A stretch of DNA of 64,000 bases from Candidatus Zapsychrus exili (GTDB lineage: Bacteria > Omnitrophota > Gorgyraeia > Zapsychrales > Zapsychraceae): assembly GCA_030765585.1 (NCBI GenBank), contig JAVCCJ010000121.1:7233-71232 (forward strand), written 5' to 3'. The notes beneath the pieces are model-generated. The model made no database searches, was not told the DNA's origin, and saw only the letters and a list, made by a program, of their open reading frames with translations. Position numbers and translations under genes: made by a program. Positions 20,774 to 64,000 of this stretch are shown here, in pieces (position 1 is the stretch's first letter; each line of letters begins with the position of its first letter).

Positions 20774-20783
20774 AGGTAAAAAG

Positions 20784-21056: not shown

Positions 21057-21072
21057 AGAGTAAGGATAAAAA

Positions 21073-24306: not shown

Positions 24307-24385
24307 TGCGAAAATTATTTTACGAGAAGGTTGCAGAATTAATAATGTGGCAGGGATTGCTTTTAATACACAAGGGAAATGAAAA

Positions 24386-25848: not shown

Positions 25849-25860
25849 TAAGAGGAAAAT

Positions 25861-26754
25861 ATGTTAGAACTAATTTTAGCCCTAGTGTTTACATTTGCTT
25901 ACCTTTCAGGGTTTTTCTTTATTTTGGCAGTTATCCCTATTCAATGGGATTATCGTCCGACTTTAAATGTTGCTGGTATTGGCGATGAGAAATCTCTTAG
26001 GCAAAAAAAGAAAAAGACACCATTTCATTTCTTAAGAAGTGTGGCTTTAATAAATAAGCCAATATGTCTTGGTGCATTAAGGGCAAGAATTGAAAAAGAT
26101 TTAGCAATAGCACACGTTAACATGACAGCAGAGGAGTTTCTTTTTATTAAGGAAGTTGGAATCTTTTTAATGCTTTTTCTTACATATCCAGTAGTTGCTT
26201 CTGATTTTGTTATGTTCTGGGGGATTATGTGTGTTGCGTTAGGATACATGATTCCTGAATTTTGGCTTAAAGGTAAAATTAAAACTTCTAAAGCCACAAT
26301 AATTAAAGAACTTCCTGATGCAATTGATTTGCTCGGACTTTGCGTTAATGCTGGACTTGATTTTATGCTTGCATTAAGATGGGTTGTTGAAAAGTCTCCG
26401 CCATCAGTTATGACCGACGAGCTAAACACAATATTGCAAGAAATTAGCGTTGGTAAGACGCGTAGGGATGCTATTAGAGATTTGTCTTACCGTTACCAAT
26501 TGCCTGATTTGTCTACTTTTGCTAGAACTTTAATCCAAGCAGATAAAATGGGAACTTCGGTTAGTGAAGCGCTGAATATGCTCTCAGAAGATATGCGTAT
26601 TGCGCGCTACAGACGAGGTGAACAGCTAGCATTAAAAGCCCCATTAAAACTTCTTGTGCCGCTTCTTTTCTTTATCTTTCCGGTTGTAGGTATTCTTGTT
26701 GCTGGACCGATATTGCTCGATTTTATCGAGAACAATCCTTTCGCTGCGCATTAA
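25861..26754 (+). CDS. tadC: Tad pilus inner-membrane platform protein TadC (T2SS-F family)
   Basis: ELPDAIDLLGLCVNAGLDFMLAL...TFARTLIQADKMGTSVSEAL is the GspF-domain signature. Confidence 0.8.
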   Translation: MLELILALVFTFAYLSGFFFILAVIPIQWDYRPTLNVAGIGDEKSLRQKKKKTPFHFLRSVALINKPICLGALRARIEKDLAIAHVNMTAEEFLFIKEVGIFLMLFLTYPVVASDFVMFWGIMCVALGYMIPEFWLKGKIKTSKATIIKELPDAIDLLGLCVNAGLDFMLALRWVVEKSPPSVMTDELNTILQEISVGKTRRDAIRDLSYRYQLPDLSTFARTLIQADKMGTSVSEALNMLSEDMRIARYRRGEQLALKAPLKLLVPLLFFIFPVVGILVAGPILLDFIENNPFAAH

Positions 26755-54200: not shown

Positions 54201-57200
54201 TCACGTAGTGTGTCAAAAAGCCGAGCAATTGAAGTTAAGGCTGGTAGTAAAGCAGTAGTAGCAAAGCTTGTAAGAAACACTTTGGTCAGCATGATAGAGT
54301 ACTTCAAACAAGTTGCAGTAAGGGTTAAGTTGGCAATGAAGGTTCAGGATGATCGCACTGAAACAAGGTTACGTGAAAGCAGAACCACAACAGTAGCAAA
54401 AGCAGTAAACGTAACAAATGAAGCAGAAGTAAATGCAGTAAAAGCAATTGTCATAGAAGAAGCACAAGTAGTATCAGTAGCACAAGTAGCAAGTGCATCT
54501 AATGTTAAGGCTACCGTTGCGGAAGGATTGGAATCCGTATCTAGATCTGCATTATTAAGATCTATGATTAGCTCATCTGCCACAATGGCAGGAATTGTTC
54601 TATTCACAATTAGAGATGAAGTTACTCAAGGCGTTGGTGAACTTTACGCCCAAGTTGTATTTAGGGGTGTGAAAAATGTGTCATCTGAAACTAGTCTTGA
54701 ATATAATGACGCTCAAGGTGCGTCTAATATCAAGATAAGGATAGTAAGCCTTGCTAAGAACATATATAGAAGTCTTAGAGTGCGCGAAGAATCAGGAGAC
54801 GCGGAACCAGGGGCTTCACCAGTTTATAAGTTTGTCCCAACAATTAACACCCAAGGAAACCAAGCCCTGGGTGTGCCTGTATTCCTATCAGCGAATATCA
54901 TAACTATAGGATCATTAAATTCTATCCACTTCTTATTAGGGGCAGCTGCTATAGCTGTTATGCTTGCAATGTTAGCATATGCAATCTATAGAGGTGCGCC
55001 AAATACTATTCATGTAAATTCAATTAAATCAAACACAGATAACAGCCTTATAAATAAAGCACGTGCATATATACGCGCGCGAGTTACTTATAAGGCTGTT
55101 TTATTTGGTAGTTTAAACCATAACGAGTCACAAGCCACGGACTCCAAACAAGGAGGTACATTATGGTCTGCATCAATACAATCAATTCAAGAAGTTTTAG
55201 CAAAAATACAGAAGGCTTACAAATCACACATTTTGTCGAATATCCAAACTCAAGCTGCTTTATCGCAACCGCAAATAACAAAGACACGAATAGAACAAAA
55301 GTCTATCTTGTTGGACAAGATGAACGTATTTATGAACGCTGTGGACTTAAAAGCACTTGGAATGAGCTTCAAAGCGAAAACAAGCGATTTCTTACAAAGC
55401 TTGTTAAAGAAGCTTTCAGCAACGAAGATGTACCATGTTATACAGCTAATAGTTCAAGCATACTTAACTAAGAAAGAAGTAATAAAGAATAGTAATGAAG
55501 TGGAAGTCGTTAGTTCCGTGGCTGGAGGCTTCTCGGCTCCACTTCTTACTAAGCAATTTGTTGAACAAATTGCTAATAATGGGGAAGAAAAATATTTAGT
55601 ACAAGCTAGTAATGGAGTGGAAGTCGTTAGTTCCGTGGCTGGAGACTTTTTGACTACACTCCTTGCTGGCATAAACAGATTTAAAGTAGCATTTGCTACA
55701 GTAGCCATATTACTTTTAAATACAGCAGTTAAAGCGCAAAGTGCTATAGCTGATACAGCTGCCGTTGTTGTAGATTCCGTGGCTGGAGGTCTTAACACAA
55801 CGGCAGCTGTTACTGATTTAAGCAGCCCAACATCTGAATTTTTTGCTCAAATAGGCAATATTACATCAGAGAGTGTATTGATAATGATCGCAGCGGCATT
55901 AATCGCAAGTGTAGTTACATGGTTTGTTATATATGTTGCATCAAAGAAATTAGCAGTAAATATAAGTAGAAGCGGTGCTTTAACGTTAGGTTTTGCTGTG
56001 GCATTTTCAGGATTAAAATTGTTTACAATAGCAGCTCCTATAATTAAGGAAGTGTTTGCCACTACAACATCTTTAGGGATGTTAGAACATTTTGCAACAA
56101 TGGCACCAGTTGTGCTTATACCTGTTTTTGCATTAATGCTTGGAATTTCGCTTGTTGCTTGGAACATTCAAAGAATTTATAAGAGCAAGACAACAGCTAT
56201 AGCTTCGCCATACAATTTTAATACTCTTTCTAAGGCAGAAAAACAAGTTTATAAGAAGGAATTTAAGAAACAATATAAACCGCTTAGAATGAGTTTTAAA
56301 GAATTTGGTCGTTTTGTTTCAGCAAGAAGAGAAATTGTTATTTCTTTAACAGTTATTGGAGCAATTGTAGGTGTTTTAACAAGCACGTCTACTCTATTAA
56401 CAATGGTTTCAGCAGGTGTTCAAGGAGCTTTAGTAGGATTTGTTTCAGTGTATCTGTTATCAGTGCTTTGGAATTTCTTCTTTGGATATGTTTGGAAGAA
56501 CACACAATTTGTTGAGTTTGTTGAAGATAATAGAGGAAGATTTAGCTCAGATGAAACAATCATACAAGAAGTAAAGAATTTAGAAGAGAAGCTAAGTAAT
56601 ACAGGCGTTTTAGAAAATAGCATATATGTAATAAAAGATCTGTTGATTTCGCTGACACTAAGATTCCCAGTTACTGGAGGAATCATACAGTTTGTGATTG
56701 GTCGTGGTTTCTTAGCTTTAGCTGGAAGCTATGTAGCCGGACCAATCACTGCTTTAATCAGCCCTTCAATAACAACTACATCTATATTAGGTTTTTGGCC
56801 AGCTGTAGTAAGTTTCTTAAAAGGCATATACCTTGATACAACAATAGGCGGATTTATAAGATTAGCTCTTATGGTTATTTTCCTTAACCTTAAAAAGATA
56901 CCTGCTTATTACAATATGACGTTTAAATTGTTCACAGGTGAGGCAATTAATACATTTAATCTTAAGAGCCATTTAAGAGAACTTCATAAGAAGCTACCTT
57001 TACATATATTAGCAGCGTTTGTGTCAGTAGCTTCTATTGTTTTAGCCCCTGCTTTTGGTATTATTTATTTAGCTAATATATCAGCTGAAGCTAATGCACG
57101 GGATGTAAATAAATATGCAAAGGTTATTGGCGATATGGGTAAAGATTTTTGGGTTGGAATGTGGAACATGTGGTTAATCTCAATGGAAATTGGTCTTATC

Positions 57201-60032
57201 ACTGATGCTGGTGCTGCACTTGATGGAGAAGATTCAGTTCTTCGTGATATTGGTGGTGCTCAAGTTCATAAGTTAGTTGATGCATTTGAAGGTGAAAATG
57301 GCGCAATAGCAGTTGGTAATTATTTATTACCTCAATATACCGCAGATGGCGTAAATATTCCTCAAGCTATTCACAACTGGGTTGGCGAGACAATTGGAGT
57401 TGAGACAATTTCTTTAGATTTTTATAATATGATAATTGCAGCGAATTCAGCAACAGAGTATAAAGATTATAAATCAACTAGAAAAGCCTTCGATGCTTAT
57501 ATTAACAAAGGACAAGATTCAATATCAGCTGATCTTAGATTTGGAAAACAAACAGCAGTTATAGTAAAAGATGAAAATAATAATTTTGTTAAGATATCAG
57601 TTGATGGCGTTCAAACACTAGGCAATTATTCAGCAAGCGTTAATATAGAAGAATTAGCAAATCAAAATGTAATCTTTATTGTGTCTGAAGAAGATGTTAA
57701 AGCCGGCACATTTGAAGATAAGTTAGATGTAATATTTACAAAGCTAGCTGAAAACAGAGGCGTTGATCAGATAGCAATAAATGCTTTTAACAAAATTACT
57801 CTTGTAGATTTAGAAAGATATCCACCAGCAGGTATTAAATTAAGAAACTATGCAGAACAACAACAAGCAGCTCAAAGAGCAATGCAAGATACTAAAGAAG
57901 CTACAGATGGTGGATACAATGGATACACAGTTGCACAAGCAAGAGAGCAAATAAAGAAATATGAAGCATTAGGAATTACAATTGAAACTGTTAATCTTAA
58001 AAATGAAGTTAGTATAAAGGCTGCAATTGATAAAGCATTAGCTTTCTTAACAACACAAGGAAGAATAGATTATACTCGCGGACCACCAACAGTTAACCTA
58101 GTCAATTCTTCTGATATAACTTTTGCAGCATTTTATGAAGTAGATGACAACACCCTATATATAGAGAAGACAGTACTTAGCGATTTAGCATATGATTTAA
58201 CTTCAGTATTTGTTCATGAGCTTAATGGTGACACTCACGAAGAGAATATAATAGCTGAGAAAGCTTATAAATTAGTACAACAACAAGAAATAGAAAAAGC
58301 AACCGATGAAAGAGCAAAGGTAATTAATAGTGCAATTGAAAGAGCAATAAAGACAGGCGATTTTGATAAAGCTGAAGATATATACAGAGACGATCTTATT
58401 ATTAGATACATAAACGATAAAGATATTTTAACTGATAAAGAAAAAGAAGATATAAGGGCTATTTTAGCTCGTGAGCAACAAAAAAGAGCAAACAAAGTAA
58501 GATCAGAAAGCGGAATACAAGTTAGTAACAATATAGAAGTTGATTCTTACGGAAATGTAGCATCGTTTATTTCGCCATTACCTACAGGCGCATTACAACT
58601 TACAAGCAACGGAATATTTGGCGCAAGCAGAGCAAGAGAAGATGGGAGTCGTTATCTTCACGAAGGTGCAGATTTTAGAGCTGTTGTGGGAACAAAGACA
58701 TTCTCTATATTAGATAATGCTGAAGTTACTCATGTGGCTAATTTTAATACAGGCCGCGCTGGTAAATATGTAACAATTTCAAGCCAAATTGGTGAACATA
58801 AAGTACAAGTATCTTATATGCATTTAAGTTCTGTTGAAGTTGAGTTAGGTCAAGCTTTATTATTAGGCGATATTATTGGTTTAACTGGAAAAACAGGAAA
58901 TGCTAATAATACTGACGAACCTCATCTACATTTAGCGATTAAAATTGATGGTAAGCTTGTTGATCCTGTTAAATTATTTAATGGAGATGTTACATTTGCA
59001 TCGGATACAAGAAACGTAGCACCTATCTTTGGATTACAAATAAGTAATGCAGCATTCGATACTTACAAAGCTCATGATGCTGATGGCTTTTTATCTAAAT
59101 ATTTTAGTTCACGAGCAGATTTTGAGAAATTCGTTTTAGCTATTATTAGATGGGAAAGCAGTTTTGATGCTGATGCGACTAGTAGCGTTGGAGCAAGAGG
59201 TCTAATGCAAATTATGCCTGGTACTTGGGCTGAAGAAGTAGCAGAGCTAGGATATAATTGGACGGCTGCTGATATTACAAATCCATTTAAGAATGTACGC
59301 ATTGGTTCACGTTATCTTGTTGAGCAATTAAGAGAATTTGGTTCTATAGAACTTGCGCTAGCAGCTTATAATCGCGGACCTGGAAAAGTAGAAGATGCGA
59401 TAGCGGCTGGTTTCGCAGACGGCATACCTACAAGCAATGGAACAACGCATGATTATATAGAAAGAATTAAGAAAGTTTATAATGGTGGAATTTTATTAAC
59501 TAATTTCATTGCTAGTCCAGTTGATGCATTAACTAAATGGCTTGCGATAGAAGAGTATAGAAACAATCCAAGATCTTGGATAGAAAAAGTAGTAAGCGAA
59601 GAAGAGAATGGCTCAAACGTTATATTCCCAGTTGTTGATGTAATTATAACTGATAGAGTAGGTGAAAAAGAGAAACAAGCTCATTTAGTTGGATCACATA
59701 ATCTTGATGTGATTACAGATGAACAAGTTTATAACAAAGTTAAAACAATACTTGGGCAAAAAGTTCTTATGGATAAACAAGGTTCTCAAGCCGGAGTTGT
59801 TCTTGTTATAAGTAAGCGAGCATTGTTTAGTGGTGAAAGTAATGTAAGGGCTATAGTAAAAGATTTATTCTCAGAGCTTATAGGAGAAATGAAGATGCAA
59901 CTATATAAAATAGTCATTTGTTTATTTTCTCTAAATCTCCTGTTTACTTATATAGAGAAAATACTTCTGAAGAAAAATATAATTTATCAGAACTTCTTGG
60001 ATTTATTGTTCCTGATGAAGACGGTGATATAG
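30255..60032 (+). CDS. Giant multi-domain membrane protein (9,925 aa as called; probably the N-terminal ~88% of a protein of more than 11,200 aa). Contains C39-like peptidase, OmpA-like, two SecA-type DEAD ATPase modules, M50 protease, M23 peptidase, SLT transglycosylase and several TM clusters
   Basis: Single uninterrupted frame of 29.8 kb with coherent codon usage. The domain motifs are listed individually in the findings. Confidence 0.85.
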   Translation: MKSAAEQNREPEDDRKADSSIGNMSENTAFTHQHSYVPTNRTFLNSEDCSADAQNISNTQPQEEPIPHKSRFKSWIKTVALIIILVFVPEQISWAFSYNPLVLWKDKATVASQYLGDGNTIAAENQMTEEQIVSLRVSESVSHFLKQLQNKNAQQIQLQLPNPHKSKLVKDNQYNILINTDLAFNESNIAEIATWLREPAIHPLNCGVYALNDILANYDVKLSLEEISVMSLLVDLINDIVRPGEPKLKTSLYAINKITEAYGINLKAAKLAPADIFDLEPPFIANFDDEHFVTVTKVDDTSVYYNDIGRASSSSRLDFLDQVTGFVLAPELEAQDDVKFEYVPDAMQAFIWGSKWHGNLDNLPGLYSWGDVAIGAAFQVVGLFTGGLASSVLSLGAGSFLGSLTTAIALSECYDAETGAADQGCLDTMFVLNIVGTSAISAGSGALNADSFDLGAFAGDFAKGAVVGLGQGLIMLYVGKLLNDLLEDWDAPDALKQAIIGAVSSVVATTAMGLVVDGLDAALKEMGVGEGAKVDLSLKSVYAGDTQVKVEPEWAVWKATAMGNVLSGLNKVVTFIGKYTGISWALNQLNKGWNKLVKGMIGSNSGAAKTLTATGKAFNGIKKGVNYALNGKFSPVTYVIKALAVIPRTVRNLMSEGKKVWGVKHLVFALEQHNFLRQMTVLAVRYILSEGKILGIDDGNKENNGDDGEDRGIAFDSFLSQAIGMGVGMFYDHVSIGLDNRDNLTKRTENEIAQKKAEAEGLDKNDPEYGDFIQNNIVSMTGMSLEDIFAKRAEFGLSENSDFAQYQGKRTSAFIAILGKSVASVLLAKHYDKKECARVDCNETERLGEDPNRDRIGLLKFRATQFLIGGLIEGGIAILTESNRRPDGAELTQTDKKVELDKKIINKLANKDADKLENALNTSMMLVNEKGELIDNLNATEKTSNEMLLAAKKKYEQAYSEGGGANGEGIEKVLAAAGLSKKESKEYLKQRAKELDKTNDVSKLFLLFNGNFVAKTIQSMYSANGNSPYGIVGYDDGVAVYDQRGFVRADEDASPTEKLISSIAARSSYINEMVGMYGGMTLTKRLMVREQNEKMEADMRRTNEVSSAAPISEEELARQIGAAQMRANVKTLDVIHNSNNYFLDAINQSLATALFSPQDSPILHALDSLAFDFVDASIEQQAQAAWEDESKKPDTNKLAFLQNKRQELRDEVAMNSDDKFGYSPSDSVDVSIEQQAQDAWAKEGKKPDTNKLEFLQNKRKELHEEAAMNSPWLGLGMDYRYLASEQIGEGIDSNKITYKMSENLVFNSGKGILLGTSLEKKGDLLEYGLEKLNVYYQDEVGKGDYIGEGSDRDFSGTIVRDISGLSEIDRRELGFDPEKMKIATENDGDKEIVAVGLAQKLRQTDRKEDVSALNEEKKGKIITKIDGTTRLVFGYEAEHLAEQGKKYDMTVDVGKFTVNEETGDRIHLSAQRQAAPDAQLSDSWVVTRQDFNAATPKDITATTMFFASQGEVIDEQGNVLEQYVASISSEDCVTGCTDPKKTWYVNRSLFAKEGDKKISDMDDLGFDTNLKTFANKDVKTEIAALKKDYKRIDDSTEKDENRLAVVNTIIDHAIEDKESNQIAKELYGFAKMVEEHKVASSLEIGAYTNNKEGSNQEGEELYLGIARYNTDDKGNVKDTSTVLISEPQIYDKNGAVATTNFIYQTEQTSAFNVGDSAVYGKVVDGKETLVSAEEIDTYKDKKGIKGDVKSIAVVRQVAKGDIDLSSAVEMAKGFDKDGVDKFGDTPENFNGKDYMSFVAASTEDGQTAVLEASKSKLVQGYSEIKSSVKVHYDHDSYKLEAKAKKDLDSAAATLNDNDQKNIIINGRTDSSGTNQYNVKLSLNRALAAKDYLMEQGISEDRIIIRALGEGEADQSIAESIRSDKEIGRKDRNSSFEIVEKSPLGDSKITFRVDKEGFVKRASTNFYTAGLDNEGSSIVYDLAPKASLLADALILLAADVADALGPEENKIQEIVTSNATSAKAAQLDGALVAIVPDIRAYELGKNDLLHIVDGEIIAPNEIRFDDYAPDPTSTPKRDSKGNVVAGSFIKDTVATKQGDGTYAYSSADGKVGKAASLTVDQLVVTKFGVVGVDEAAIVSDKPLILGNNSQWLASSSDATLEVAFGSKTTQALDSKGNIVGPVEEVNYNGGYRIDESKAIVLRSKVGEGALLGSIYINNEGAPKVLDKEAFEEESLEDNKKYVSATTQSETVGSLSVAGISTESKWTATPVVDGKINKYAADEDGVLESALVGNRIVSLHGNAKENNMTFKDMKDKANVGFISKSGRMILTPNNNNISGGWSKDANDQLSFNVGIKDTKKMNGSEEGKGTALGLQQENVLVYNKGIGNILYQGSEQTSVDPVTGLVGANRFVTMNLTGDMGVNQGTVLASKVDLAQGNIEGQVRNHKDLDAPSIFSAKLNTFDIKDSEIILKVSQELGDVSQLPVAADFAYSKEGKGEAPVQTPANLAALKGVENNPNVLMLEVSKEAGQDLTKVLGTPTSSVLNFAFSTDGLKFNPKAEGSVYSNFDRVSVLSGVEAPTVILKREATPTESNSTPAIQFIADANNNVKMQWKGIWNIQRDSAYTNHSTKWMSADGKSEAPLVLNTTIIGEEITASAGWNDTAVWNWAAGAPKMRGTITDKDGNSVSSLGIQRVDGAGAGWTIQARGSKDGSTLVAPNHVNVEENGYVDPDAKKDVDKTVSNKFFKLPQAQSYDVYKDGSREDGLVEVRLNQGFPEGVETPADFEIKSGQSINLLVQDHDGLSSVSTTENMVGTDVRKMIYHAKAPEQEKAAVEKEVSEQETDLNKFSMPIENFVAKQDNTRLAKVNIPVIIDNFITPEPNVDKITVQEWRVERAPETMVVENPYSVLTLDGSRAIERDVWGSKVGTIPIKETVSFEPGDYQSFGDVNKTVLITKTAATSYNIDYSNSDKITATKSSEGLNFVDYSGEMSFIKGRTSKEIEQIKENDITEWFPNATEGKEKVSVQMDSDAITSEAMQIKRYDPKTGAHVTDRYLAGMTAIKGNDGIIRSQFTTEASLYNADTKEIGNAGNLLYDAAASFLLDSVETDKGKKAVFKFVPEGQDPTVFTATSKGGIETVNTIYTDPATIKEANEANSSGALLPEAIAQTLDPNNTGSIQRVYQYQGKKLVNEYFAVTRAKEDSSKVEKFYVDGKYANPNNANELKSLIASELNLDLKETKTSTLQDFSYSKTIEDDAEVVYVSPQGKVYLRMVTGRTIIETPNSYSSSSTSTSEQHDVFAYDLVTGDVEEVDVEKTFVDVVTDKDGAKRYALKYLVPESRTRYSIGLPISYKPAGVQGIEFKDEDGKEIWADINYIKSGQLNGVGEEKQFVAVSIQDAGWSKNKRNRIIDLSTGREITREGFIETPEGGKWDLNRYKGKIVEMVKAKGFWGDVGDVAWNGLRGEGKETYVKNMLMDWGMSYASAGALDVSNPSVAGVVTTALMFTGVGSGLGLIGKGAKAGSTAARVYSISRAALKTGLIFGGIDTAAYVGIGALTGQDLNFSDGLAAFAGGVKMGATMTLGITGLGAVSGRIANSINAVNGVAGTGKGFKFVSKTYKGFGKMAEWKQAAILNGSSGAAVNVTRGMVANYYENGGELDYSLRSFAIDATAGAIISVALGGVGSKVMKGSFNTKQLLGNNMIHYGLVGLGGETVSTGIFSDKEMTWTRAAGSFAMGAIGGLVFRSTWIPEMMGVKPAEIIGETAKVTEGVTEGATSLFRNIKNPLKLTKAAQGVESGATVLNFSKLRTIGTLTGLGVGAGAGMAAMDARVHAKQDARKAGFKEGTKAFDSFVSKETSNNFRSWKTAKYMGAGALAANVMFFGRRAIQMKGRAKLLGTHSNKRITLPLIADEPHLIASLSLLGAADFAMIMPAWGALDSVIYTGLTGGNLEEGFYHSFQQKDVDGNDLGVFSNLAVHSIGGAKLGARLGPVLGIAQMPLSALGKKSALAPKSISKFSANKSSGLSISKILSSPTAHSMPVTVAQLATVEVLAEKVLENTYFKTAAENKADTLYNSHLEETKIMTGAYPTTTKAQFREEYAKNKIKEDAGQIAFASLLFKPSSMPGAEPETGGKGNKGSTAEAKIETPPNKPSDNALSADAQIKLSTKQTNIDQAPVAKPEKSMLSRMTTAVDYIGSKFKGHNNNILRQKIGTQSLEQNVIITSSSKQYVKAAKEARRRGTESKDKEYRDLDEIDQVFNMSMDSLRESIEADGRTKFKVKPKQLALVYSVIEHAIKGEKLLAIEPVSGGKTVLTAAIVDSLAKKGKTVVVIVPSGKLVDQYMNSALFENGRFTTPQTRNNGKDAVPEALKKGMVYFMTDAQAKDFVLHKNKTGENFFKDAQGFYDEAHNLFTMSDKIIGGGSERAAKIVAENSSQAKRLQRQYDTDTELARITVDLVREVGGEVEYLVENKNSDRMSHQFKEQATYRNGKNVWAVKDANGKLSIVKKGTAGAEILRPKDIVLERFNKSVKEKKLIRFKSDHSKALLEDFAGLAKSAFQEARIRTKNKQGNLESAPLDAYTGEARWGEIFSDPTGRNTKARALVALERVLALEREGNVNLESYIKSAINSTEHKARGADFLDMFDNVTLLTGTAGEVKGMAKMKNINMVQFRPEYTLKDIGPENVTFETSGKSKIDMIVDIIRDEINLAKKAGDNFVLITTNSREAGVLGARKARQTQNLKDKGYKVEYVSDAKLAERIKEINNSNAKEKIVIVTQVIEGISVEAKGSGVVMETAVLSAADTTQALARMNTFAEAKDSSRTKAKAKVKLHIDDHLILTAEKQKILEAQGKLDQARKTNSSDAIKNAEANLDLIWREMMHSLTEFKTNQGLATISTTVVEGVKSKVAKESVQQQLRSTTHGILSDIRQEAHKDIALDYMNKTGKTSAQISLSDNKGFEIFSSSKEGDEISVDNINNVGLVATEEIELIHGAKLKAGQTLDYETGFVYEAPQNEFDIKDFSQIKSEYLPVGVISITREDVNNPKANYNPVVNTVVNGKKAAAIELSDLGKNTLLDRQIVYAENSDGKIDQVAYRVKPIISNVTVGAALSAININDDSYEIDNDGFAIVPIETFNKAFSKENALDNSVFDGIGFKFAQDITIHEGFKEKRSDAITGRTRKSKNKVAKDALKLSIQKTVETPEIAIALPDGQGGTKTQRIKMDDLRELQTRMASSKSPDSDVNLYFADYDSEESKAKTNKALNNLVRFSNPTTQDDKDWVASLNTEEVVHYDTAAKSLKTRGISPVEFAMRFQHQMGGKNFGGHTGSGGQDALGNKRDQQNVYVNESATHIFDYYQDIERDKGFEAASDTEKMMETVLHEQIGFANRDFSHYQNVEVRRVWLKATEAVKQMKENNVDTVELQLVDGSGYEIYEAIKENGKTIGAQPIKLVAQNSDVKLRHLNTTLAKGETLDYKASSKTASLDTGSIKYKSVDNQEDKIVSKLKVGQDIVNITDPNLNGHTKLAQRAVADVEDAASILNKIDLSLNGTRKEFALDRHIKTIEQLRNTNNVFISKNAGAMSTDDGRMIVGRLDNNNNRLVLNSEANGEMADIYLRGQKIVENVPLRVAAIISEVDRKHDAGFEVYKAKNDAPAQSKASDNALTADTFHPANITTRKQIQGMMRDGVDQALMTLRAGGYDSKAKIMNFTKANLPDSFNKRVKDFAMRARVRATTARERAQKDTFGSVIHASSGRVSTLEWGLHEAGYKTDEAMVAKIADIVAGDPRRVEGDIAVYDFSDVKGTTRLDNYELHVDTTRNFDDKSMLSIFADAPQGQTIAWLGENIAVVNTDISVGGESELARSWSKIEKKLGNQNFDEQLAMVMQFDIIDLNKLVALAVEDANTEEAILARAKGLSVDAPIYVAVMRDEWVFFAVVDGKLVGEPQKAEDISNGLVLMSKESIPGHVVAKFSEKYVVAQSVLNPETSIPTALGKGQWAPIEGQLASMSATAMLSVVPSVAKHEKIVVVQSDAGQAEKTAIEFALAIPEKQIYVVNHTKTNQWFVKVTVADGEANISNVFITADKLENGVVVVDAAMLSEAAFDILRANGAIISKAAMPDSFGGEDNVSAKAVKAVFNTDYRQKTIDQRLKTKEAAEEPVIVVPVAPRNDAIDMPAMVPAATIPVTVPMLMSSGVGDNSPNVELADAAMTSGPGNNSPNYKDIIAKSEELIADSEKTIAISQKIRAASEEIRANSRAIRKKIATSGSDDAMLAAAKTDDIMQYLPYDRKIENDVLVKMKQDVGRIVDIINETNRKIEPEFSVRDDQVKMAEALIEGKVVVAENAAGKTLAKFIAGLANIVNGRQATILTRDENDSAKWILEAPEEGFGANYSQMLAATMKEYELESSGIVDLDGLMKRYDDALKKRRTIVANKEINEIKGQILRALQSKDMLKIVSINARGHMPNRFLDDDLILQGIKSIKDDGDTILDEADDLLLLETTYIQSQSQSVKKNSNLRKIVSQAKKIFDQVKIGTDEEDAIKVAASIQDFEKLNKANKKAVWYSQGSGLIGAPDLLISDAVYESFKEGTLPTMIEGVIRGKIEEIGTRLAADLNKGELVPVTRTGELQSDMIFSQIPYKVAQTLKINEILKARGDSQLKLNNITVTGDTVRENPISEMLQGKGRVVGATANKAGAEYIIQAKTGSTEGIVTIGEESNVFKQAALPTKNYRHVDITGQAGGLVDQLASMAEKSLADNKGTLIFTSDHVQLRKIAEDLKKRFPNTEVGVIDEDTKPEQIEKYRNEIGTHKGNSTPRIVVSLPRVAKQVSFKGNLDVIVSDGASWPKADLTHAVNRNNRSEKLELRLGRSYVLVDKEALNKKFEFVRNLVPEIKGLSKADDVNKLVDEIEKAGAGDTLALSKKHRLVAEFLQAQQRSSSHKHTILTLFRNNRQTEPMQDLYDSRVGSDKKIVQEILFKERAGLYGNTMQKLHDNPFTGEEWVREASRQSWEAAVREWNDLLELAKTKGGSAELLARVEEQIDLMRDRQTNEPGEYLNVVANGKVLNQFADVLKDANKEQNKEVRLRKLEAGHKGILMAAKYLGEGIIPTRVTAFFKADNIKSVASKTDKSKDMTYVEFVKGLTSEEKNKFNLSMYGFVVELKGEYTLARRGHQLISMLDAFENLSQQDMDKLGATVGSHTPFTIAVQLVQADIVDIKEAKQLASMVNFWLENAGQTEHIVSLSEEQQSNFLSKLKKLTLLISDKTYTLLASIGEEIGIIDNVDMLTQIKSRSDAITQALEGVKDLEAQKAKAGLLGIRFNGKLKTAVKTLVELVNPTIAKMASLQNEIASDKLDIGPIEFAAILLNSDELRNIEDISRAEKTLIYIGETIGYKQLDKKQINFVASLLEESLVLPAVLLVESESISDAQREQHIRVAANKIDQNAKVKKQDLQMLFYQMLSNPHKFGLTASAAKKKVRKFNWKLDKADTFKKIRTTLGNELASRLNPKLGFLDKFSVSDNEEFKLVSGRIDWTDEQAEQEYNKLADKEKEIQEKTEELVQKLKEKQEETKGNVQESVKEVKKASFLNRFKPTIVFEGNNMAEKVLKAGIKIGSVTLGWMLVPSVLIASLVFGTSGLGIIGMVLVSATIHEIGHIVAARILGGSQTYQGMGVYGPIAQATLNTRGLSKNAIRIIAAIGPITNILVGTVALAFGVDPFTAYQGIEFWGVPVNLVTINLVFLAAVNLLPIPAFDGLTVITGKNTKTSMASGSGKAFYSSIPLYEFVLYVASVLSLRGVKRRGNLEEEIALQKPLAMTDNEKHTQQSAIFESQDKIEAINLNIELEKAVMPEIPAMPDRSMPFDPLGIPVAPMIPLGAPALMLLGSVSGSGPGGKAPVSMVEQQREFGQNEADIKVAQAQTGSEVGFLLAFALDLKSRMNFSSTGLSPNAISAAILFRKGSGRANVVARIIVNVVHVVANAVNVVSSNGSKPLISSDFGHKGKNNGEPGSRSVSKSRAIEVKAGSKAVVAKLVRNTLVSMIEYFKQVAVRVKLAMKVQDDRTETRLRESRTTTVAKAVNVTNEAEVNAVKAIVIEEAQVVSVAQVASASNVKATVAEGLESVSRSALLRSMISSSATMAGIVLFTIRDEVTQGVGELYAQVVFRGVKNVSSETSLEYNDAQGASNIKIRIVSLAKNIYRSLRVREESGDAEPGASPVYKFVPTINTQGNQALGVPVFLSANIITIGSLNSIHFLLGAAAIAVMLAMLAYAIYRGAPNTIHVNSIKSNTDNSLINKARAYIRARVTYKAVLFGSLNHNESQATDSKQGGTLWSASIQSIQEVLAKIQKAYKSHILSNIQTQAALSQPQITKTRIEQKSILLDKMNVFMNAVDLKALGMSFKAKTSDFLQSLLKKLSATKMYHVIQLIVQAYLTKKEVIKNSNEVEVVSSVAGGFSAPLLTKQFVEQIANNGEEKYLVQASNGVEVVSSVAGDFLTTLLAGINRFKVAFATVAILLLNTAVKAQSAIADTAAVVVDSVAGGLNTTAAVTDLSSPTSEFFAQIGNITSESVLIMIAAALIASVVTWFVIYVASKKLAVNISRSGALTLGFAVAFSGLKLFTIAAPIIKEVFATTTSLGMLEHFATMAPVVLIPVFALMLGISLVAWNIQRIYKSKTTAIASPYNFNTLSKAEKQVYKKEFKKQYKPLRMSFKEFGRFVSARREIVISLTVIGAIVGVLTSTSTLLTMVSAGVQGALVGFVSVYLLSVLWNFFFGYVWKNTQFVEFVEDNRGRFSSDETIIQEVKNLEEKLSNTGVLENSIYVIKDLLISLTLRFPVTGGIIQFVIGRGFLALAGSYVAGPITALISPSITTTSILGFWPAVVSFLKGIYLDTTIGGFIRLALMVIFLNLKKIPAYYNMTFKLFTGEAINTFNLKSHLRELHKKLPLHILAAFVSVASIVLAPAFGIIYLANISAEANARDVNKYAKVIGDMGKDFWVGMWNMWLISMEIGLITDAGAALDGEDSVLRDIGGAQVHKLVDAFEGENGAIAVGNYLLPQYTADGVNIPQAIHNWVGETIGVETISLDFYNMIIAANSATEYKDYKSTRKAFDAYINKGQDSISADLRFGKQTAVIVKDENNNFVKISVDGVQTLGNYSASVNIEELANQNVIFIVSEEDVKAGTFEDKLDVIFTKLAENRGVDQIAINAFNKITLVDLERYPPAGIKLRNYAEQQQAAQRAMQDTKEATDGGYNGYTVAQAREQIKKYEALGITIETVNLKNEVSIKAAIDKALAFLTTQGRIDYTRGPPTVNLVNSSDITFAAFYEVDDNTLYIEKTVLSDLAYDLTSVFVHELNGDTHEENIIAEKAYKLVQQQEIEKATDERAKVINSAIERAIKTGDFDKAEDIYRDDLIIRYINDKDILTDKEKEDIRAILAREQQKRANKVRSESGIQVSNNIEVDSYGNVASFISPLPTGALQLTSNGIFGASRAREDGSRYLHEGADFRAVVGTKTFSILDNAEVTHVANFNTGRAGKYVTISSQIGEHKVQVSYMHLSSVEVELGQALLLGDIIGLTGKTGNANNTDEPHLHLAIKIDGKLVDPVKLFNGDVTFASDTRNVAPIFGLQISNAAFDTYKAHDADGFLSKYFSSRADFEKFVLAIIRWESSFDADATSSVGARGLMQIMPGTWAEEVAELGYNWTAADITNPFKNVRIGSRYLVEQLREFGSIELALAAYNRGPGKVEDAIAAGFADGIPTSNGTTHDYIERIKKVYNGGILLTNFIASPVDALTKWLAIEEYRNNPRSWIEKVVSEEENGSNVIFPVVDVIITDRVGEKEKQAHLVGSHNLDVITDEQVYNKVKTILGQKVLMDKQGSQAGVVLVISKRALFSGESNVRAIVKDLFSELIGEMKMQLYKIVICLFSLNLLFTYIEKILLKKNIIYQNFLDLLFLMKTVI
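30790..31200 (+). other. Peptidase C39-like (papain-fold Cys peptidase) domain of the giant protein
   Basis: PLNCGVYALNDILANYDVKLSLEEISV ... DDEHFVTVTKVDDTSVYYNDIG parallels the C39 pattern (..CGxAxL..vsleEl.. / ..NHFVVLykid..vyiaDP). Confidence 0.5.
33781..34065 (+). repeat. In-frame tandem duplication (2 x ~123 nt, period 162 nt = 54 aa) inside the giant gene
   Basis: SIEQQAQAAWEDESKKPDTNKLAFLQNKRQELRDEVAMNS / SIEQQAQDAWAKEGKKPDTNKLEFLQNKRKELHEEAAMNS, ~85% nt identity. Confidence 0.8.
35740..36070 (+). other. OmpA-like peptidoglycan-binding domain of the giant protein
   Basis: IIINGRTDSSGTNQYNVKLSLNRALAAKDYLMEQGISEDRIIIRALGEGEA matches the OmpA_C pattern (GHTDxxGsxxYNxxLSxxRAxaVxxYL...Gi...ri...GxGE). 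Confidence 0.65.
43080..44700 (+). other. First SecA-type DEAD/SF2 ATPase module of the giant protein
   Basis: KPKQLALVYSVIEHAIKGEKLLAIEPVSGGKTVLTAAIVDSLAKKGKTVVVIVPSGKLVDQY (SecA motor pattern Q-L-iGg..L..Gki-aEM-kTGEGKTL-a-l-ayLnAL-GkgVHvVTvND-La-rD). DEAH-like box FYDEAHNLF. Later TTQALARMNTF. Confidence 0.6.
49150..50830 (+). other. Second SecA-type DEAD ATPase module of the giant protein
   Basis: DDQVKMAEALIEGKVVVAENAAGKTLAKFIAGLANIVNGRQATILTRDENDSAK. DEAD box TILDEADDLLL. Motif-VI-like LTHAVNRNNRSEKLELRLGRSYVLV. Confidence 0.65.
53000..53470 (+). other. Peptidase M50 (site-2 protease-like) intramembrane metalloprotease domain of the giant protein
   Basis: HExxH in a TM helix (VSATIHEIGHIVAARILGG) and NLLPIPAFDGLTV (S2P pattern NLLPIPxLDGG), flanked by hydrophobic helices. 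Confidence 0.6.
58560..58990 (+). other. Peptidase M23 (LytM-type peptidoglycan endopeptidase) domain of the giant protein
   Basis: YLHEGADFRAVVGT (HxxxD), GKYVTISSQIGEHKVQVSYMHL, TGNANNTDEPHLHLAIKIDGKLVDP (HxH). Confidence 0.7.
59060..59470 (+). other. SLT-type lytic transglycosylase domain of the giant protein
   Basis: AIIRWESSFDADATSSVGARGLMQIMPGTWAE (catalytic E-S plus GLMQ), ..NVRIGSRYL.., LALAAYNRGPGKV (AYNxG). Confidence 0.7.
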
Positions 60033-63000
60033 AAGCACCAGCTGATGCAACTTACAATCCTATTTATAACAGAATTAGTGGAAAGATAGTAGAAAAGCTA
60101 GATACTGAAGATGGAATTATTATAACTGTAAAAGATGGAGAGAAAGAGGCTTCTTATATAGTTGTTGCAACTCATTTAAATGAAGACGACATAGTAATGG
60201 AGGGAGCTCTTTTAGGTGTATCTTTTGATAAACAAGCTTCTGATGAAACTTTAGAAGAACAAATAGAGATGCAAATAGCAGATATAAGAGAAGGCATAGA
60301 AGATAAAGAAGAAAGAGTTGATGAGATTTTAGATGATGTTGCAAAATTCTTATCTACAAAAGCTATGTTTGTAGATCAAGGATCATTTGAGTATGAAACA
60401 TTGGTTGAGAAATTAAAAAACAATGATTTAAGTACAAGATTAGCTGTTGTATCAGCTTTGGTTAATGCATATGGCGTTGATCCTAAAAATACAATTAATG
60501 GTCTTTTTGCAAGAAATAGCGAGTTAAGAGGCGAAGATCAAACAACTAATTTATTAGCATATGTAGGTCTTAATTATGTTCCAGGAAATGCAGTATTTAC
60601 AAAGGGTATTAATTTAGGCGGAAATAATAGTTTAGATATTGGTCTTGCAATTAATAGTCGTTATTCACAATTCTTACAAATTTTAAATATGACATTAGGA
60701 TATGAAGACCTTATTGCGAAACAAGGCGTAGGTGCTGTTTTAGGATGGATATTCTATGTAGAGGCTGCAGCAGAAGTATTTAATGGATTTCAAGGAATGA
60801 TAACAGGTTTTTCAGATAGAGGTGGAATTATAAGACCAATAAAAAGAGGAGTATGGACTGCTGTTTATGATGCGGCAGAAGAAAAAGGCGATCCTAGGAT
60901 AGTTGAAAAAGACGGAGAAACCATACTTAAGAAAGAGACTAAATCTTATTCAGTACATGTATCAGCTGCCAGCGCTATTAAAGATCTTATGAGAGAAACT
61001 TTAGGACATGTTATTCCTTCATTATTTGGTGATCCAGAGAAAGTTGCTATTTGGGAAGCAAGATACCCAATTTATCTTCCAGGAAATGTTCAACTAAGAT
61101 TCCTTAAAGAAGGTATTGCAAATACTGATGAGAATATTATTTATTCAATACAAAGAGGACGTGAAGGGGAGAAAGCAGAAGGACTTAAGGGAGATGCATC
61201 TGAGTATATCTTTGGCTATAAGATTGATTTAAACAAAACAACAGTGACTGAAGAGAATCCTTTAGGAACTAAAGAATTAATGTTTGCTTCTCGTATGTTT
61301 GCCAAAGATAAAAATGGTGAGCTTTTACTTAAAGAGTGGTTAGAAAAACCATATAACGCTATGTATAATAAAGAACCTGGCGAGATGTATATAGTTCCTT
61401 CAAGACATACATTAGAGAATGTTGGCGATCTAAGAGACGTTGCAAGGGGTTATGATTTTGATGCTGATGGAGAAAAAAGAACAATACTAGCTGCAGCAAT
61501 TCATCCTACAACTGGTGTTGTTATGAGAAAGTATTATAAATATGATGGTATACCTGCATCAAATCCTGTTCCTGCATTTGAGCGTGATGGTATGACAATA
61601 TATGTTGCTGAAAATGAATATACTTATGAAGACATAAAAGTTAAGTCTAATCAAGATCCAAGTTTATCAATAGGAACAGTAGATGATAAGCCAATTCATC
61701 CATATATTATATATAGCAAGCCTTTAGCTGATATAGGTTATTGGTTTGGTGCAGAGTCAACAGATAATACAACAGCACATATTATGAAATTTAGCAAAGT
61801 AGCAACAAATGAGTCAGTGAATATGTATGAATATGCAGGTACTCAAGAATGGACTGAAGATGTAAAAGATATTAAAACAACTGAATTGGTTTGGAAAAAA
61901 TATGACGACAAAAAAGAAACTCCAATTAGAACAGCTGTTAAAATGTTTAACCCTAACAAGGGTGTTGTTGATACAGATAAAATAACAGGTGAGGATAAAT
62001 ATTCAGGAGATTATACAGAAATTACATTACCTGAAGGTTTAATTATAGTTGATGAGAATACAGGCAATATTACAGGCGCAGATGAAATAGGAATTATCGT
62101 TGAAAAACCAGCTGAGGTACCTATTGCGGTTGCTCATCTTATTGATCGCTCAGTATATTTATACACTCAAGAAGAAGTTGATGCGCTTTATTTACATGAG
62201 GCAGGTAAAGATTTAAAAGTTAATTTTGTTTGGGATTTTGCTGGAGCAGATTCTAGAAAAATTAATGTAATAAGAAATAATTCTAATCATGATGATCAAA
62301 CTGTAATGATAGTTGGTGGTCTAGGTCTTGATACAAAGGTAGACGAAAATGATTCAAAAGATCAACCTGAGGTAGGAATTTTAGAATATAGCAGAGCTAG
62401 CAGCCTTGAATATCAAAAAATATTTACAAAAATGGTAAACAATAAAGCGTTAGGTATGATTACTCGCGAAGATGGAACTATTGAGCTTATAACAAAAGAT
62501 AACTTCCCTGTTACAGAGCAGATAATAGAAAGTGTACCTGAGAAAGAATCTGATGATTTAGCAAGATATGCAAGAAAAGACCTTATGAATGTTGGCGAGG
62601 TTGAAGGTTTAATATCTATAGCTGGCATAGATGATATAGATGGAGAAATCAAAGCGCTTATAAATAAGACATTAGGATTAGAAGCTGATATATCAAGTAA
62701 AGATGCAGCTTATATTAAGGCAAAAGCAGAATATGAAAAAGATTTAGATCAGCTTGTATCAATTGAAGCTGTTTTAGGCCAAGAAAGTTTCTTTGCAAGA
62801 ACACATGCAATAAACGCTATGTTAAGAGGTTTTGAAGAAGAACAAAAGAAATTAGATGATGCTATTACAATAGGCGAAATTATAGCAAAGATGTCTGTAG
62901 GTGAAAATTCTGAGACTGGCGAACTTCAAATTAATTATAAAGATTTTATGACAGATTTAAGAGAAGAAGCAGTAGATAGAAATATGGATATTAATGATTT

Positions 63001-64000
63001 ATTAGAAAAGAAGATTATAAATTATTTTAATTCACAATTCTTTAAGAGTAGCGATGTTGCAGCTCTTGAAGAAGAAATTAGAAAAGCACAAGCTGCTCTT
63101 AATAAACTATATCATTTTAATGAAAATGATCCATTTGTAACATTTGATGAAGCTTATTTACATGTATATGGTCCTTGTGGAGTTGTACCAGGAACACTTG
63201 TTCAATCAGCAGATTTATTACTTCCAGCAGCGCAAATATCATTAGATTCGCTTCAAATGAATTTAACTACTGCAGAAGCTCTATTAAGCGATATAGAAGT
63301 AAATGGCTATGCTGACAATAGTAATACTTACAACAATATAGTCTTTACTCAAGAGAAGATATCAGAAGGCTTTACATATGAAAAAACAGATGACGGACAA
63401 TCAGATATATTATGCTCAACTATGGGTCGTATACAAAGATTAGAGCATGCTGTTATAAAGTGGCAAGCTGAATTAGTTAAAGCACAAAGTAATGTAGAGT
63501 GGAAAGCAATGGTAGAAGAGAATTTAGCACAAACTCAAAGTTGGTTAGCTTTAGAGAAAGACACATTTATTTTATTGCTTAAGATGAGTGTTATTTATTA
63601 TGATCCTACAGGTTTATTCTACACCGAAGCAAAAGAGATGCTTAAAGATGTTATTGCTCTTGCAGAAAGAAGAGTAGCATTAACATCAGAAGATATTAAT
63701 TTATTAGAGAGAGCAAAAAATACTAATATTCCAAATTATCAAGGACTATTCCTTATACCTCTAGAGTGGGACGAAGCAGAACTAGGCCCTCGCGATTCTG
63801 ATGTTTATACAATACCAGAAGTAGAAGCATATTGGATGTCTCGTCTTGTTGCAATTGATATGGAAATAAGAGCAATGCAAGAAATTATAACGAATAATGA
63901 AATAAGTGATGAAGCAAAGGCGCTGTTCGTACAGCTTATAGCTAATTTAGAACAAGAAAGAGACGACTACTATACAAATCATGCTAAGCCTGAGTTAGAA
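59909..64000 (+). CDS. Open frame (-1 relative to the giant ORF) running from 59909 to the window edge with no stop and no credible start codon; most likely the 3' continuation of the giant gene
   Basis: Frame 2 translation (NSHLFIF...ELLGFIVPDEDGDIEAPADATYNP... to ...YYTNHAKPELE) is protein-like for 4.1 kb. Inserting one A into the A4 run at 59907-59910 joins it in frame to the giant ORF (…MQLYKNSHLF…). Confidence 0.6.

What the first reader, a model, noticed from the sequence alone, without database searches (positions are those of the whole stretch)
59880..60035. Single-base frame break at an A4 homopolymer splits the giant gene into two ORFs
The called ORF ends at 60030-60032 after a 45-aa low-complexity tail (MQLYKIVICLFSLNLLFTYIEKILLKKNIIYQNFLDLLFLMKTVI) that does not look like protein. 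The -1 frame is open from 59909 to the window end, looks like protein, and has no ATG, GTG or SD nearby. Adding one A to the run at 59907-59910 gives a seamless junction ...ELIGEMKMQLYKNSHLFIFSKSPVYLYRENTSEEKYNLSELLGFIVPDEDG.... The possibilities are a sequencing or assembly indel, genuine pseudogenization or phase variation, or transcriptional slippage on the A-run.
Basis: seen in the sequence. Interest (0 to 1): 0.7.

Follow-up and report, generated by a model that had tools for sequence, protein, structure and literature searches.

The report
One-base frameshift splits Omnitrophota giant gene
A very large predation-type gene (about 13,400 codons) of the uncultured bacterium Candidatus Zapsychrus exili is cut into two reading frames by one missing A; this looks like an ordinary frameshift allele or an uncorrected assembly error, not a decoding trick.

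Summary
ORF 30255-60032 (9,925 aa) stops at TAG 60030-60032. The -1 frame has TAA at 59906-59908 and is open from 59909 to the window end. An A4 run lies at 59907-59910.

The window matches a GenBank MAG of Candidatus Zapsychrus exili (Omnitrophota). There the downstream frame is annotated as a separate 3,545-aa protein (MDP8213470.1) starting at TTG 59918.

Omnitrophota homologues read straight through the equivalent position in one frame. The two ORFs are therefore one gene of 13,433 codons. Its domains and its upstream pilus/secretion cluster fit the described Omnitrophota very large genes.

Nothing supports programmed decoding: there is no slippery heptamer, the run is only A4, there is no Rfam match, and no homologue is broken at this position.

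In a related population, MAG contigs 99.97% identical differ by one SNP plus two single-A deletions that break the homologous gene. Two separately deposited contigs share one of those deletions.

Best reading: a non-programmed loss of one A (A5 to A4). A real recent allele (about 0.5) and a consensus error (about 0.37) cannot be separated without reads. Interest is low.

The parts
30255..59909 (+). Upstream 9,885 codons of the giant gene, in frame with ATG 30255. Last in-frame codon is AAA (Lys) at 59907-59909.
   Evidence: ORF list. Pfam hits: Peptidase_C39 at 30867-31238, OmpA at 35748-35987, DEAD/ResIII at 43098-43472. Frame-0 tblastn matches from homologues up to about 59900.
58656..59405 (+). 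Peptidase_M23 (58656-58967) and SLT lytic transglycosylase (59124-59405) domains just upstream of the break.
   Evidence: Pfam E = 1.4e-13 and 6.1e-24. The same M23-SLT-downstream order is found in one polypeptide in P0002 and P0007.
59709..60223 (+). Conserved region of about 170 aa that the break cuts in two. The break falls between the segment ...VRAIVKDLFSELIGE and the segment HLFIFSKSP.
   Evidence: The upstream half alone matches positions 16-89 (25.8 bits) and the downstream half positions 85-190 (42 bits). Alignments.
59907..59910 (+). A4 run, the most likely site of the missing base. A5 would give ...MQLYK NSHLFIFSK...
   Evidence: Sequence. The -1 stop TAA at 59906-59908 and the P0012 frame -1 match starting at 59918 confine the shift to about 59900-59918.
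59910..60032 (+). Forty out-of-frame codons (IVICLF...KTVI) plus TAG. This is a read-on tail, not protein.
   Evidence: Codon-usage log-odds are -20.2 for frame 0 and +19.8 for frame -1. No homologue matches this tail.
59909..64000 (+). Downstream part of the same gene in the -1 frame. It continues beyond the window, for 3,548 codons in all.
   Evidence: Open frame. P0001 is 100% identical and 3,545 aa long. Frame -1 tblastn matches from 16 homologues.
59918..59920 (+). TTG used as the start of the separately annotated GenBank protein MDP8213470.1. Probably not a real start.
   Evidence: P0001 begins at query residue 172, which is this TTG. No Shine-Dalgarno motif upstream. No promoter-like site on the + strand in 59300-60500.
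7275..26754 (+). Context: Tad/type II-like secretion and pilus cluster. It contains a Rotamase_2 PPIase, RcpC, a secretin, a T2SSE ATPase, Flp-like pilins and two T2SSF genes. This is the conserved neighbourhood of Omnitrophota giant genes.
   Evidence: Pfam. Small pilin ORFs. Description in West-Roberts et al. 2023, bioRxiv 10.1101/2023.11.21.568195, section 11.

Best explanation
The two ORFs are one gene of 13,433 codons: 9,885 codons upstream and 3,548 downstream. It is a very large Omnitrophota cell-envelope and peptidoglycan-attack protein. It lost one A from an A5 run, leaving the A4 at 59907-59910.

The loss is not programmed. As the DNA stands, ribosomes read 40 nonsense codons and stop at TAG 60030. 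The result is a 9,925-aa product lacking the C-terminal 3,548 residues, which include the C-terminal hydrophobic (probably membrane-spanning) segment.

I take it to be a real and very recent frameshift allele in the sampled population. It would be recent because the 3,548 downstream codons carry no further damage.

Shown: it is one gene; the break lies within about 20 nt of the A run; recoding signals are absent.
Inferred: the missing base is an A of that run; the allele exists in cells rather than only in the assembly.
For: - Continuity in homologues. P0002, P0004, P0006 and P0012 align through the junction with no insertion. P0007 and P0009 carry both flanks in order. P0012 switches from frame 0 to frame -1, with its frame -1 match starting at 59918.
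- Codon usage puts 59910-60029 in the -1 frame.
- There is no + strand promoter or terminator and no Shine-Dalgarno motif at the break.
- The rest of the window looks clean: no other pair of adjacent same-strand ORFs looks like a gene split by a frameshift, and a 4,205-nt contig from a separate ENA assembly is 100% identical.
- Direct analogue. In a related Omnitrophota population, L004 is 99.967% identical to L002 over 9,002 nt. The only differences are one SNP and two single-A deletions, which are exactly the two -1 frame breaks of L002.
- L005 is a separately deposited contig of different length. It is 100% identical to L002 over 7,187 nt and shares the first break. That argues against a random assembly slip there.
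- Another homologue, L007, carries an in-frame TAG. That is a kind of lesion assemblers rarely invent.
Against: - No reads and no second assembly of this species cover the site, so a consensus error cannot be excluded.
- West-Roberts et al. report that single-base indels and local assembly errors, including in Illumina-only assemblies, split Omnitrophota giant genes. In one case two adjacent giant ORFs fused into one after correction.
- The complete intactness of the 3,548 downstream codons fits an artefact as well as it fits a very recent mutation.
- The six codons before the A run (59889-59904) already score like the -1 frame. A simple A5-to-A4 loss does not explain that.
Confidence: 0.5

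Rival explanations
1. Assembly or consensus artefact. The cells carry A5 and an intact 13,433-codon gene, and the deposited contig dropped one A.
For: - There is a direct precedent in the same gene class. Single-base indels throw giant genes out of frame in long-read assemblies. Errors also occur in Illumina-only assemblies, and two neighbouring giant ORFs became one 74,983-aa gene after correction (West-Roberts 2023).
- The break sits in a homopolymer.
- The downstream 3,548 codons are undamaged.
- In the analogue L002/L004, two of the three differences between 99.97% identical contigs are frame-breaking indels. That ratio would be odd for neutral divergence.
Against: - A4 is a short run.
- The window shows no other pair of adjacent ORFs that looks like a gene split by a frameshift across about 55 kb of coding sequence, and it is 100% identical to an independent MEGAHIT contig over 4.2 kb.
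- In the analogue, two separately deposited contigs share the same deletion.
Confidence: 0.37
2. Gene fission that is tolerated. The 9,925-aa product and a 3,545-aa product started at TTG 59918 are both made and function as separate pieces, which is plausible for a protein thought to be cut into modules anyway.
For: - The downstream frame is fully open, and a TTG lies three codons after it opens.
- GenBank annotates it this way.
- An N-terminal C39 peptidase domain has been proposed to cleave giant proteins into smaller polypeptides.
Against: - There is no Shine-Dalgarno motif, promoter or terminator at the break.
- The break cuts a conserved domain in the middle.
- The overlap would be 115 nt (TTG 59918 to the TAG at 60032), and that overlap is not coded in frame 0.
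- All homologues are continuous at this position.
Confidence: 0.07
3. Programmed recoding. Either -1 ribosomal frameshifting or transcriptional slippage on the A run restores the full-length protein from A4 DNA.
For: - A GGAG lies at 59883-59886, about 20 nt upstream.
- An 11-bp AU-rich hairpin (about 59923-59963) starts 12 nt after the run.
- The window break and both L002 breaks are in the -1 direction and sit just before T(A/G)G.
Against: - There is no X XXY YYZ heptamer in frame 0 anywhere in 59850-60032, although 49 occur elsewhere in the ORF.
- tRNA-Lys slipping back from AAA would land on UAA.
- A4 is far below the run lengths known to cause RNA polymerase slippage (established knowledge).
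- The fold is not significant, with z = -1.9.
- No Rfam family is matched.
- The break is absent from every homologue at this position.
- In the analogue, near-identical genomes carry the intact allele, so those sites are not obligatory recoding sites.
Confidence: 0.04

Closest known systems
Omnitrophota giant genes ('Archaeovorin'-type) and their reported splitting by assembly indels (West-Roberts et al. 2023, bioRxiv 10.1101/2023.11.21.568195; Kizina et al. 2022 for Velamenicoccus archaeovorus)
   Same: - Phylum Omnitrophota.
- N-terminal C39 peptidase after a hydrophobic segment, an internal DEAD-type helicase domain, and SLT/M23 cell-wall hydrolase domains.
- Upstream cluster with gspD/E/F-like genes, rcpC, a Rotamase_2 PPIase and small class-III-signal pilins.
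- Two adjacent very large ORFs that are really one gene, as in the paper's corrected 74,983-aa case.
   Different: - At 13,433 codons it is below that paper's 30,000-aa 'giant' threshold.
- No glycosyltransferase, methyltransferase, NUDIX or SecA-specific Pfam hits at E <= 1e-3.
- Here it is not known whether the break is an error or a real allele.
Frameshift-disrupted genes (pseudogenes or null alleles) at short homopolymers in bacterial genomes and MAGs
   Same: A single-base loss in a mononucleotide run, a premature stop after a short nonsense tail, an intact downstream frame, and polymorphism between near-identical genomes in the analogue.
   Different: Nothing beyond the size of the gene. 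At about 40 kb it is a large mutational and error target.
dnaX / IS3-type programmed -1 ribosomal frameshifting
   Same: The direction of the shift (-1). A GGAG lies upstream and a hairpin lies downstream.
   Different: No slippery heptamer. Spacings of about 20 nt and 12 nt do not fit the dnaX arrangement (established knowledge). The structure is not significant. The break is not conserved in homologues.
Transcriptional slippage and contingency-locus phase variation at long homopolymers (for example poly-A tracts of Buchnera or Blochmannia, and Neisseria or Haemophilus contingency genes)
   Same: An A-run at the frame break.
   Different: The run is only four bases, whereas those systems use roughly seven or more, and usually nine or more (established knowledge). 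The called ORF alone has 327 A-runs of four or more bases, and this is the only frame break in the gene.

Membership tests
Omnitrophota giant ('Archaeovorin'-type) gene | Encoded in an Omnitrophota genome | tested here: met
   The downstream ORF is 100% identical over the 997 residues compared to MDP8213470.1 from a Candidatus Zapsychrus exili MAG. The homologues whose source names an organism are Omnitrophota, apart from one weak hit (P0018) labelled Elusimicrobiota.
Omnitrophota giant ('Archaeovorin'-type) gene | C39 peptidase domain near the N-terminus, close to a signal or transmembrane segment | tested here: met
   Peptidase_C39 at residues 205-328, E = 1e-7. Hydrophobic segment WIKTVALIIILVFV at about residues 75-88.
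Omnitrophota giant ('Archaeovorin'-type) gene | SecA-like DEAD helicase and preprotein-binding domains | tested here: inconclusive
   Generic DEAD and ResIII hits at about residues 4270-4406. SecA_DEAD itself is not listed here, though it is recorded for the homologous gene in L005.
Omnitrophota giant ('Archaeovorin'-type) gene | Preceded by a type II/IV-like secretion cluster with rcpC and a Rotamase_2 PPIase | tested here: met
   Rotamase_2, RcpC, secretin, T2SSE, two T2SSF genes and Flp-like pilins lie at 7275-26754, as described.
Omnitrophota giant ('Archaeovorin'-type) gene | Length above 30,000 aa, with glycosyltransferase, methyltransferase or NUDIX domains | tested here: not met
   The repaired length is 13,433 codons, and none of these domains appears at E <= 1e-3. 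It is a smaller relative, not a 'giant' by that paper's cut-off.
Omnitrophota giant ('Archaeovorin'-type) gene | Followed by small PilZ genes | not testable with these tools
   The gene's 3' end lies about 6.5 kb beyond the window.
Programmed -1 ribosomal frameshift site | Slippery heptamer X XXY YYZ in the upstream frame at the shift site | tested here: not met
   None in 59850-60032, against 49 elsewhere in the ORF.
Programmed -1 ribosomal frameshift site | Stable stimulatory structure 5-9 nt downstream | tested here: inconclusive
   An 11-bp AU-rich hairpin starts 12 nt downstream. The whole-region fold has z = -1.9, and 11 of 200 shuffles fold as well.
Programmed -1 ribosomal frameshift site | The frameshift is conserved in homologues | tested here: not met
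   P0002, P0004, P0006, P0012 and the L002/L004 gene are continuous at this position. Breaks elsewhere in L002 are absent from the 99.97% identical L004.
Transcriptional slippage or homopolymer phase variation | Long mononucleotide tract (about 7-9 bases or more) | tested here: not met
   The run is A4. The called ORF holds 232 A4, 68 A5, 24 A6 and 3 A7 runs, and this is the only frame break in the gene.
Genuine boundary between two genes | Start codon with a ribosome-binding site, and homologues that end or start here | tested here: not met
   There is only a TTG without a Shine-Dalgarno motif. There is no + strand promoter or terminator. Homologues are continuous, and the break cuts a conserved domain.

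The most novel reading that the evidence does not exclude
Single-A losses just before T(A/G)G might be a recurrent and reversible way for Omnitrophota populations to shorten or switch off their enormous attack proteins. Alternatively, the cell might decode across them by an unconventional -1 event.

All three localised -1 breaks (this window plus two in L002/L005) remove one A from a short A run directly before TAG or TGG, and repairing them restores an AAT codon. Only about 2% of bases in these genes lie in that context. Intact and broken alleles coexist at 99.97% identity.

This rests on three sites and a motif defined after the fact.
Probability: 0.06. Interest if true: 0.55.

Novelty: already known. 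Interest (0 to 1): 0.2.

Why it matters
The main value is annotation hygiene. GenBank lists the downstream frame as a separate 3,545-aa protein (MDP8213470.1) beside the 9,925-aa upstream ORF, where there is one 13,433-codon gene. Catalogues of very large proteins therefore undercount and mis-size this one.

It also illustrates a general point. Genes of about 40 kb are big enough that nearly every MAG copy risks at least one frame break or stop. In the homologous loci examined here I saw five such lesions in about 105 kb. Surveys of giant genes should stitch adjacent same-strand ORFs before measuring length.

If the allele is real, part of the population makes a truncated protein that lacks its C-terminal hydrophobic segment. 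That would bear on how dispensable this machinery is.

Tried and rejected
**Searches that found nothing**
- Megablast of 58500-61500 against plasmid and phage records gave no match.
- The search for homologous proteins with three junction queries found nothing useful and did not even return P0001, which is in the collection. One further call timed out. Its silence is therefore not evidence.
- Single-protein scans of genome, viral and metagenome contigs found no relative. The five-sequence alignment A1 was too divergent to search with. Alignment A2 found nothing in metagenome contigs.
- No second assembly of this species across the break was found. P0001 is alone in its 90% cluster and its contig is not retrievable. 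The only other contig of this strain, L001, covers 23751-27955.

**Inconclusive analyses**
- AlphaFold2 on the junction region with a five-sequence alignment gave pLDDT 52 and below 50 at the junction, so it cannot say whether one fold spans the break.
- An alternative reading in which the frame changes at about 59888 (...GE NEDATI) scores only 1.4 bits better against the homologue profile and needs an extra in-frame TAA. I did not adopt it.

**Signals looked for and not found**
- No Rfam family at gathering thresholds in the whole window and no tRNA.
- No internal paralogue of the junction region within the gene.

**Excluded data**
- Frame changes in L006 (two of three) and L008 coincide with runs of N. 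They were discarded as scaffold-gap artefacts.

Full report
**1. The observation**

The sequence is as described. ORF 30255..60032 on the + strand is 9,925 aa long. It ends ...SELIGEMKMQLYKIVICLF...KTVI with TAG at 60030-60032. The -1 frame carries TAA at 59906-59908 and is then open from 59909 to the last base of the window, which is 1,363 codons. The run at 59907-59910 is exactly A4.

The open -1 frame cannot be chance. Across this gene the -1 frame has 0.126 stops per codon, and its longest other open stretch is 115 codons.

A codon-usage model trained on the rest of the gene assigns the 40-codon overlap 59910-60029 to the -1 frame. Frame 0 sums to -20.2 nats and frame -1 to +19.8 nats.

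One correction is needed. A TTG lies at 59918, three codons into the open frame. It has no Shine-Dalgarno motif, and the first ATG is at 60197.

**2. Source and context**

An exhaustive HMMER search used a repaired query of 168 aa upstream plus 1,000 aa downstream. It returned 19 proteins.

The best hit, P0001, is 100% identical over the 997 residues compared. It is 3,545 aa long and begins at the TTG at 59918. It is GenBank MDP8213470.1, a hypothetical protein (locus tag P9X22_09340) of a Candidatus Zapsychrus exili MAG, on a contig of 111,550 bp. The window therefore comes from that Omnitrophota MAG, and the public annotation treats the downstream frame as a separate gene. Repaired, the gene has 9,885 + 3,548 = 13,433 codons.

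The gene carries these Pfam domains:

| Domain | Position |
|---|---|
| Peptidase_C39 | residues 205-328 |
| OmpA | residues 1832-1911 |
| DEAD/ResIII | about residues 4270-4406 |
| Peptidase_M23 | 58656-58967 |
| SLT | 59124-59405 |

Upstream, at 7275-26754, lie a Rotamase_2 PPIase, RcpC, a secretin, a T2SSE ATPase, several Flp-like pilins and two T2SSF genes. This is the neighbourhood that West-Roberts et al. (bioRxiv 10.1101/2023.11.21.568195) describe for Omnitrophota giant genes. They also describe the N-terminal C39 domain and the DEAD-type helicase.

**3. One gene or two**

Six Omnitrophota homologues carry matches to both sides in one polypeptide and in the right order. By tblastn, their upstream matches fall in frame 0 and their downstream matches in frame -1.

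For P0002, P0004, P0006 and P0012 the alignment runs directly through the break. (P0012) and its counterparts. It is within one residue of their length.

P0012's frame -1 match starts at 59918, and its frame-0 match stops being meaningful around 59900. The missing base is therefore confined to about 20 nt that include the A run.

A profile built only from the four homologues gives these scores:

| Sequence scored | Bits | Profile positions matched |
|---|---|---|
| Upstream product as encoded | 25.8 | 16-89 |
| Downstream product from TTG | 42 | 85-190 |

There is no + strand promoter-like or terminator-like site in 59300-60500. The break therefore interrupts a conserved domain inside one gene and is not a gene boundary.

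**4. Is it decoded across**

Several checks argue against this.
- No X XXY YYZ heptamer exists in frame 0 between 59850 and 60032, although 49 occur elsewhere in the ORF.
- A tRNA-Lys slipping back from AAA would face UAA.
- A run of four A is far shorter than the tracts known to cause RNA polymerase slippage or phase variation (established knowledge). The called ORF alone holds 327 A-runs of four or more bases, and this is the only frame break in the gene.
- An AU-rich 11-bp hairpin starts 12 nt downstream, but the fold is not significant, with z = -1.9.
- Rfam finds nothing in the window.
- No homologue has a break at this position.

**5. An informative analogue**

A scan with alignment A2 found the homologous gene in another Omnitrophota MAG, L002 (JAHJCZ010000184.1). 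There it is broken twice, both times in the -1 direction. P0003 is the 833-aa middle piece.

P0003's 90% cluster contains a continuous 3,000-aa protein, P0022, from a third MAG. Its contig, L004, is 99.967% identical to L002 over 9,002 nt. The only differences are one SNP and two single-A indels, which are exactly the two breaks:

| Break | Intact (L004) | Broken (L002) |
|---|---|---|
| 1 | TCAA[A]TGG | TCAATGG |
| 2 | GTTA[A]TAGA | GTTATAGA |

A further contig, L005, has a different length and comes from a different deposited assembly. It is 100% identical to L002 over 7,187 nt and shares the first break.

So in a related population the same kind of lesion, one A lost from a short A run, separates otherwise near-identical genomes. 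The intact allele exists there, which rules out an obligatory recoding site. The shared break in two contigs argues that at least that one is present in real DNA.

Another homologue, L007, has an in-frame TAG between open runs of 3,210 and 3,565 codons. L006 has a +1 break at 7438-7526. The other frame changes in L006 and L008 sit on runs of N and were discarded.

**6. Error or allele**

This cannot be settled here.

For an artefact:
- West-Roberts et al. state that single-base indels throw giant genes out of frame in long-read assemblies.
- They state that errors also occur in Illumina-only assemblies.
- They report that two adjacent giant ORFs became one 74,983-aa gene after a local correction.

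For a real allele:
- The window shows no other pair of adjacent ORFs that looks like a gene split by a frameshift.
- A 4.2-kb contig from an independent ENA assembly is 100% identical.
- A4 is a short run.
- The analogue shows such deletions recurring across assemblies.

Either way the event is recent or unreal, because the 3,548 downstream codons carry no further damage.

I put a real allele at about 0.5, an artefact at about 0.37, tolerated fission with a TTG start at about 0.07, and recoding at about 0.04.

**7. Loose ends**

- The six codons just before the A run (59889-59904, ATG AAG ATG CAA CTA TAT) score like the -1 frame (AAT GAA GAT GCA ACT ATA = NEDATI). The net log-odds is -10.4, in the lowest 0.03% of six-codon windows of the gene. 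That reading runs into TAA at 59906 and gains only 1.4 bits against the homologue profile. I treat it as unexplained.
- The window break and both L002 breaks remove an A directly before T(A/G)G, and repairing them restores an AAT codon. About 2% of bases lie in that context. With three sites and a motif defined after the fact, this is only a lead.

**8. Verdict**

It is a frameshift-interrupted copy of an already described class of very large Omnitrophota genes, of a kind already reported for these genes in metagenome assemblies. Its practical consequence is that the downstream GenBank CDS and the 9,925-aa ORF upstream of it should be read as one gene of 13,433 codons.

Noticed in passing
window about 55127-55471 (+), inside the giant ORF: The -1 frame is open for 115 codons here (ORF 55163..55471, 102 aa from ATG). 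That is far longer than any other off-frame run in the gene; the next longest is 71. Codon usage over 40 codons also favours the -1 frame (net -15.5, against a gene mean of +80 and SD of 21). Frame 0 stays open as well. This could be a compensated pair of indels or an odd-composition segment. No homologue covers it.
   Followed up: partly
window 59888-59908: The six codons before the A4 run score like the -1 frame (NEDATI, then TAA at 59906). They fall in the lowest 0.03% of six-codon windows of the gene. P0006 has ENKDAS near the equivalent place. A simple A5-to-A4 loss does not explain this.
   Followed up: partly
L002 6003 and 8492; L004 4742 and 7232; L005 10001-10040: The homologous gene in another Omnitrophota population is broken by two single-A deletions in one MAG, and a second MAG contig shares the first deletion. 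A third MAG that is 99.967% identical is intact. One SNP is the only other difference in 9 kb.
   Followed up: yes
window 59907-59913; L002 6001-6006 and 8491-8495: All three localised -1 breaks remove one A immediately before TAG or TGG, and repairing them restores an AAT (Asn) codon. Only about 2% of bases in these genes lie in an A-run followed by T[AG]G. The motif was defined after seeing the sites and rests on three cases.
   Followed up: partly
L007 9632-9634 (JBAZLO010000012.1, GCA_041650215.1): An in-frame TAG separates open runs of 3,210 and 3,565 codons in the same frame of a homologous giant gene. The annotation lists a 7,357-aa and a 3,444-aa protein. This is probably a nonsense allele.
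   Followed up: partly
L006 7438-7526; L006 2492-2501 and 3706-3779; L008 9809-9908: L006 has a +1 frame break in N-free sequence. The other frame changes in L006 and L008 coincide with runs of N, so scaffold gaps of arbitrary length also split these genes in public assemblies.
   Followed up: partly
window 28011-30254: This is a 2.2-kb stretch with no ORF of 100 aa or more, between a DUF1016/SNase gene on the - strand and the giant gene. It holds diverged direct repeats (28245-28317 with 28655-28727; 28828-28893 with 29474-29539) and nested inverted repeats (29066-29109 with 29270-29313; 29128-29154 with 29213-29239). The giant ORF's ATG at 30255 has no Shine-Dalgarno motif.
   Followed up: no
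window 59883-59897: GGAG followed 8 nt later by an in-frame ATG (59895) lies inside the giant ORF just before the break. It looks like a ribosome-binding site plus start, but it is in frame 0 and would only encode the 45-aa nonsense tail.
   Followed up: no
window 23751-27955 = L001: A 4,205-nt MEGAHIT contig from ENA assembly ERZ27315536 is 100% identical to the window. The same strain is therefore present in a second public assembly, but that assembly yielded no retrievable contig over the break.
   Followed up: partly
window 16295-17632: A row of small ORFs has Flp-type class III signal sequences (for example ...KGQSTVEYIILVAG...). They sit between the secretion ATPases and the T2SSF genes, matching the 'small genes with class III signal peptides' described next to Omnitrophota giant genes.
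   Followed up: no
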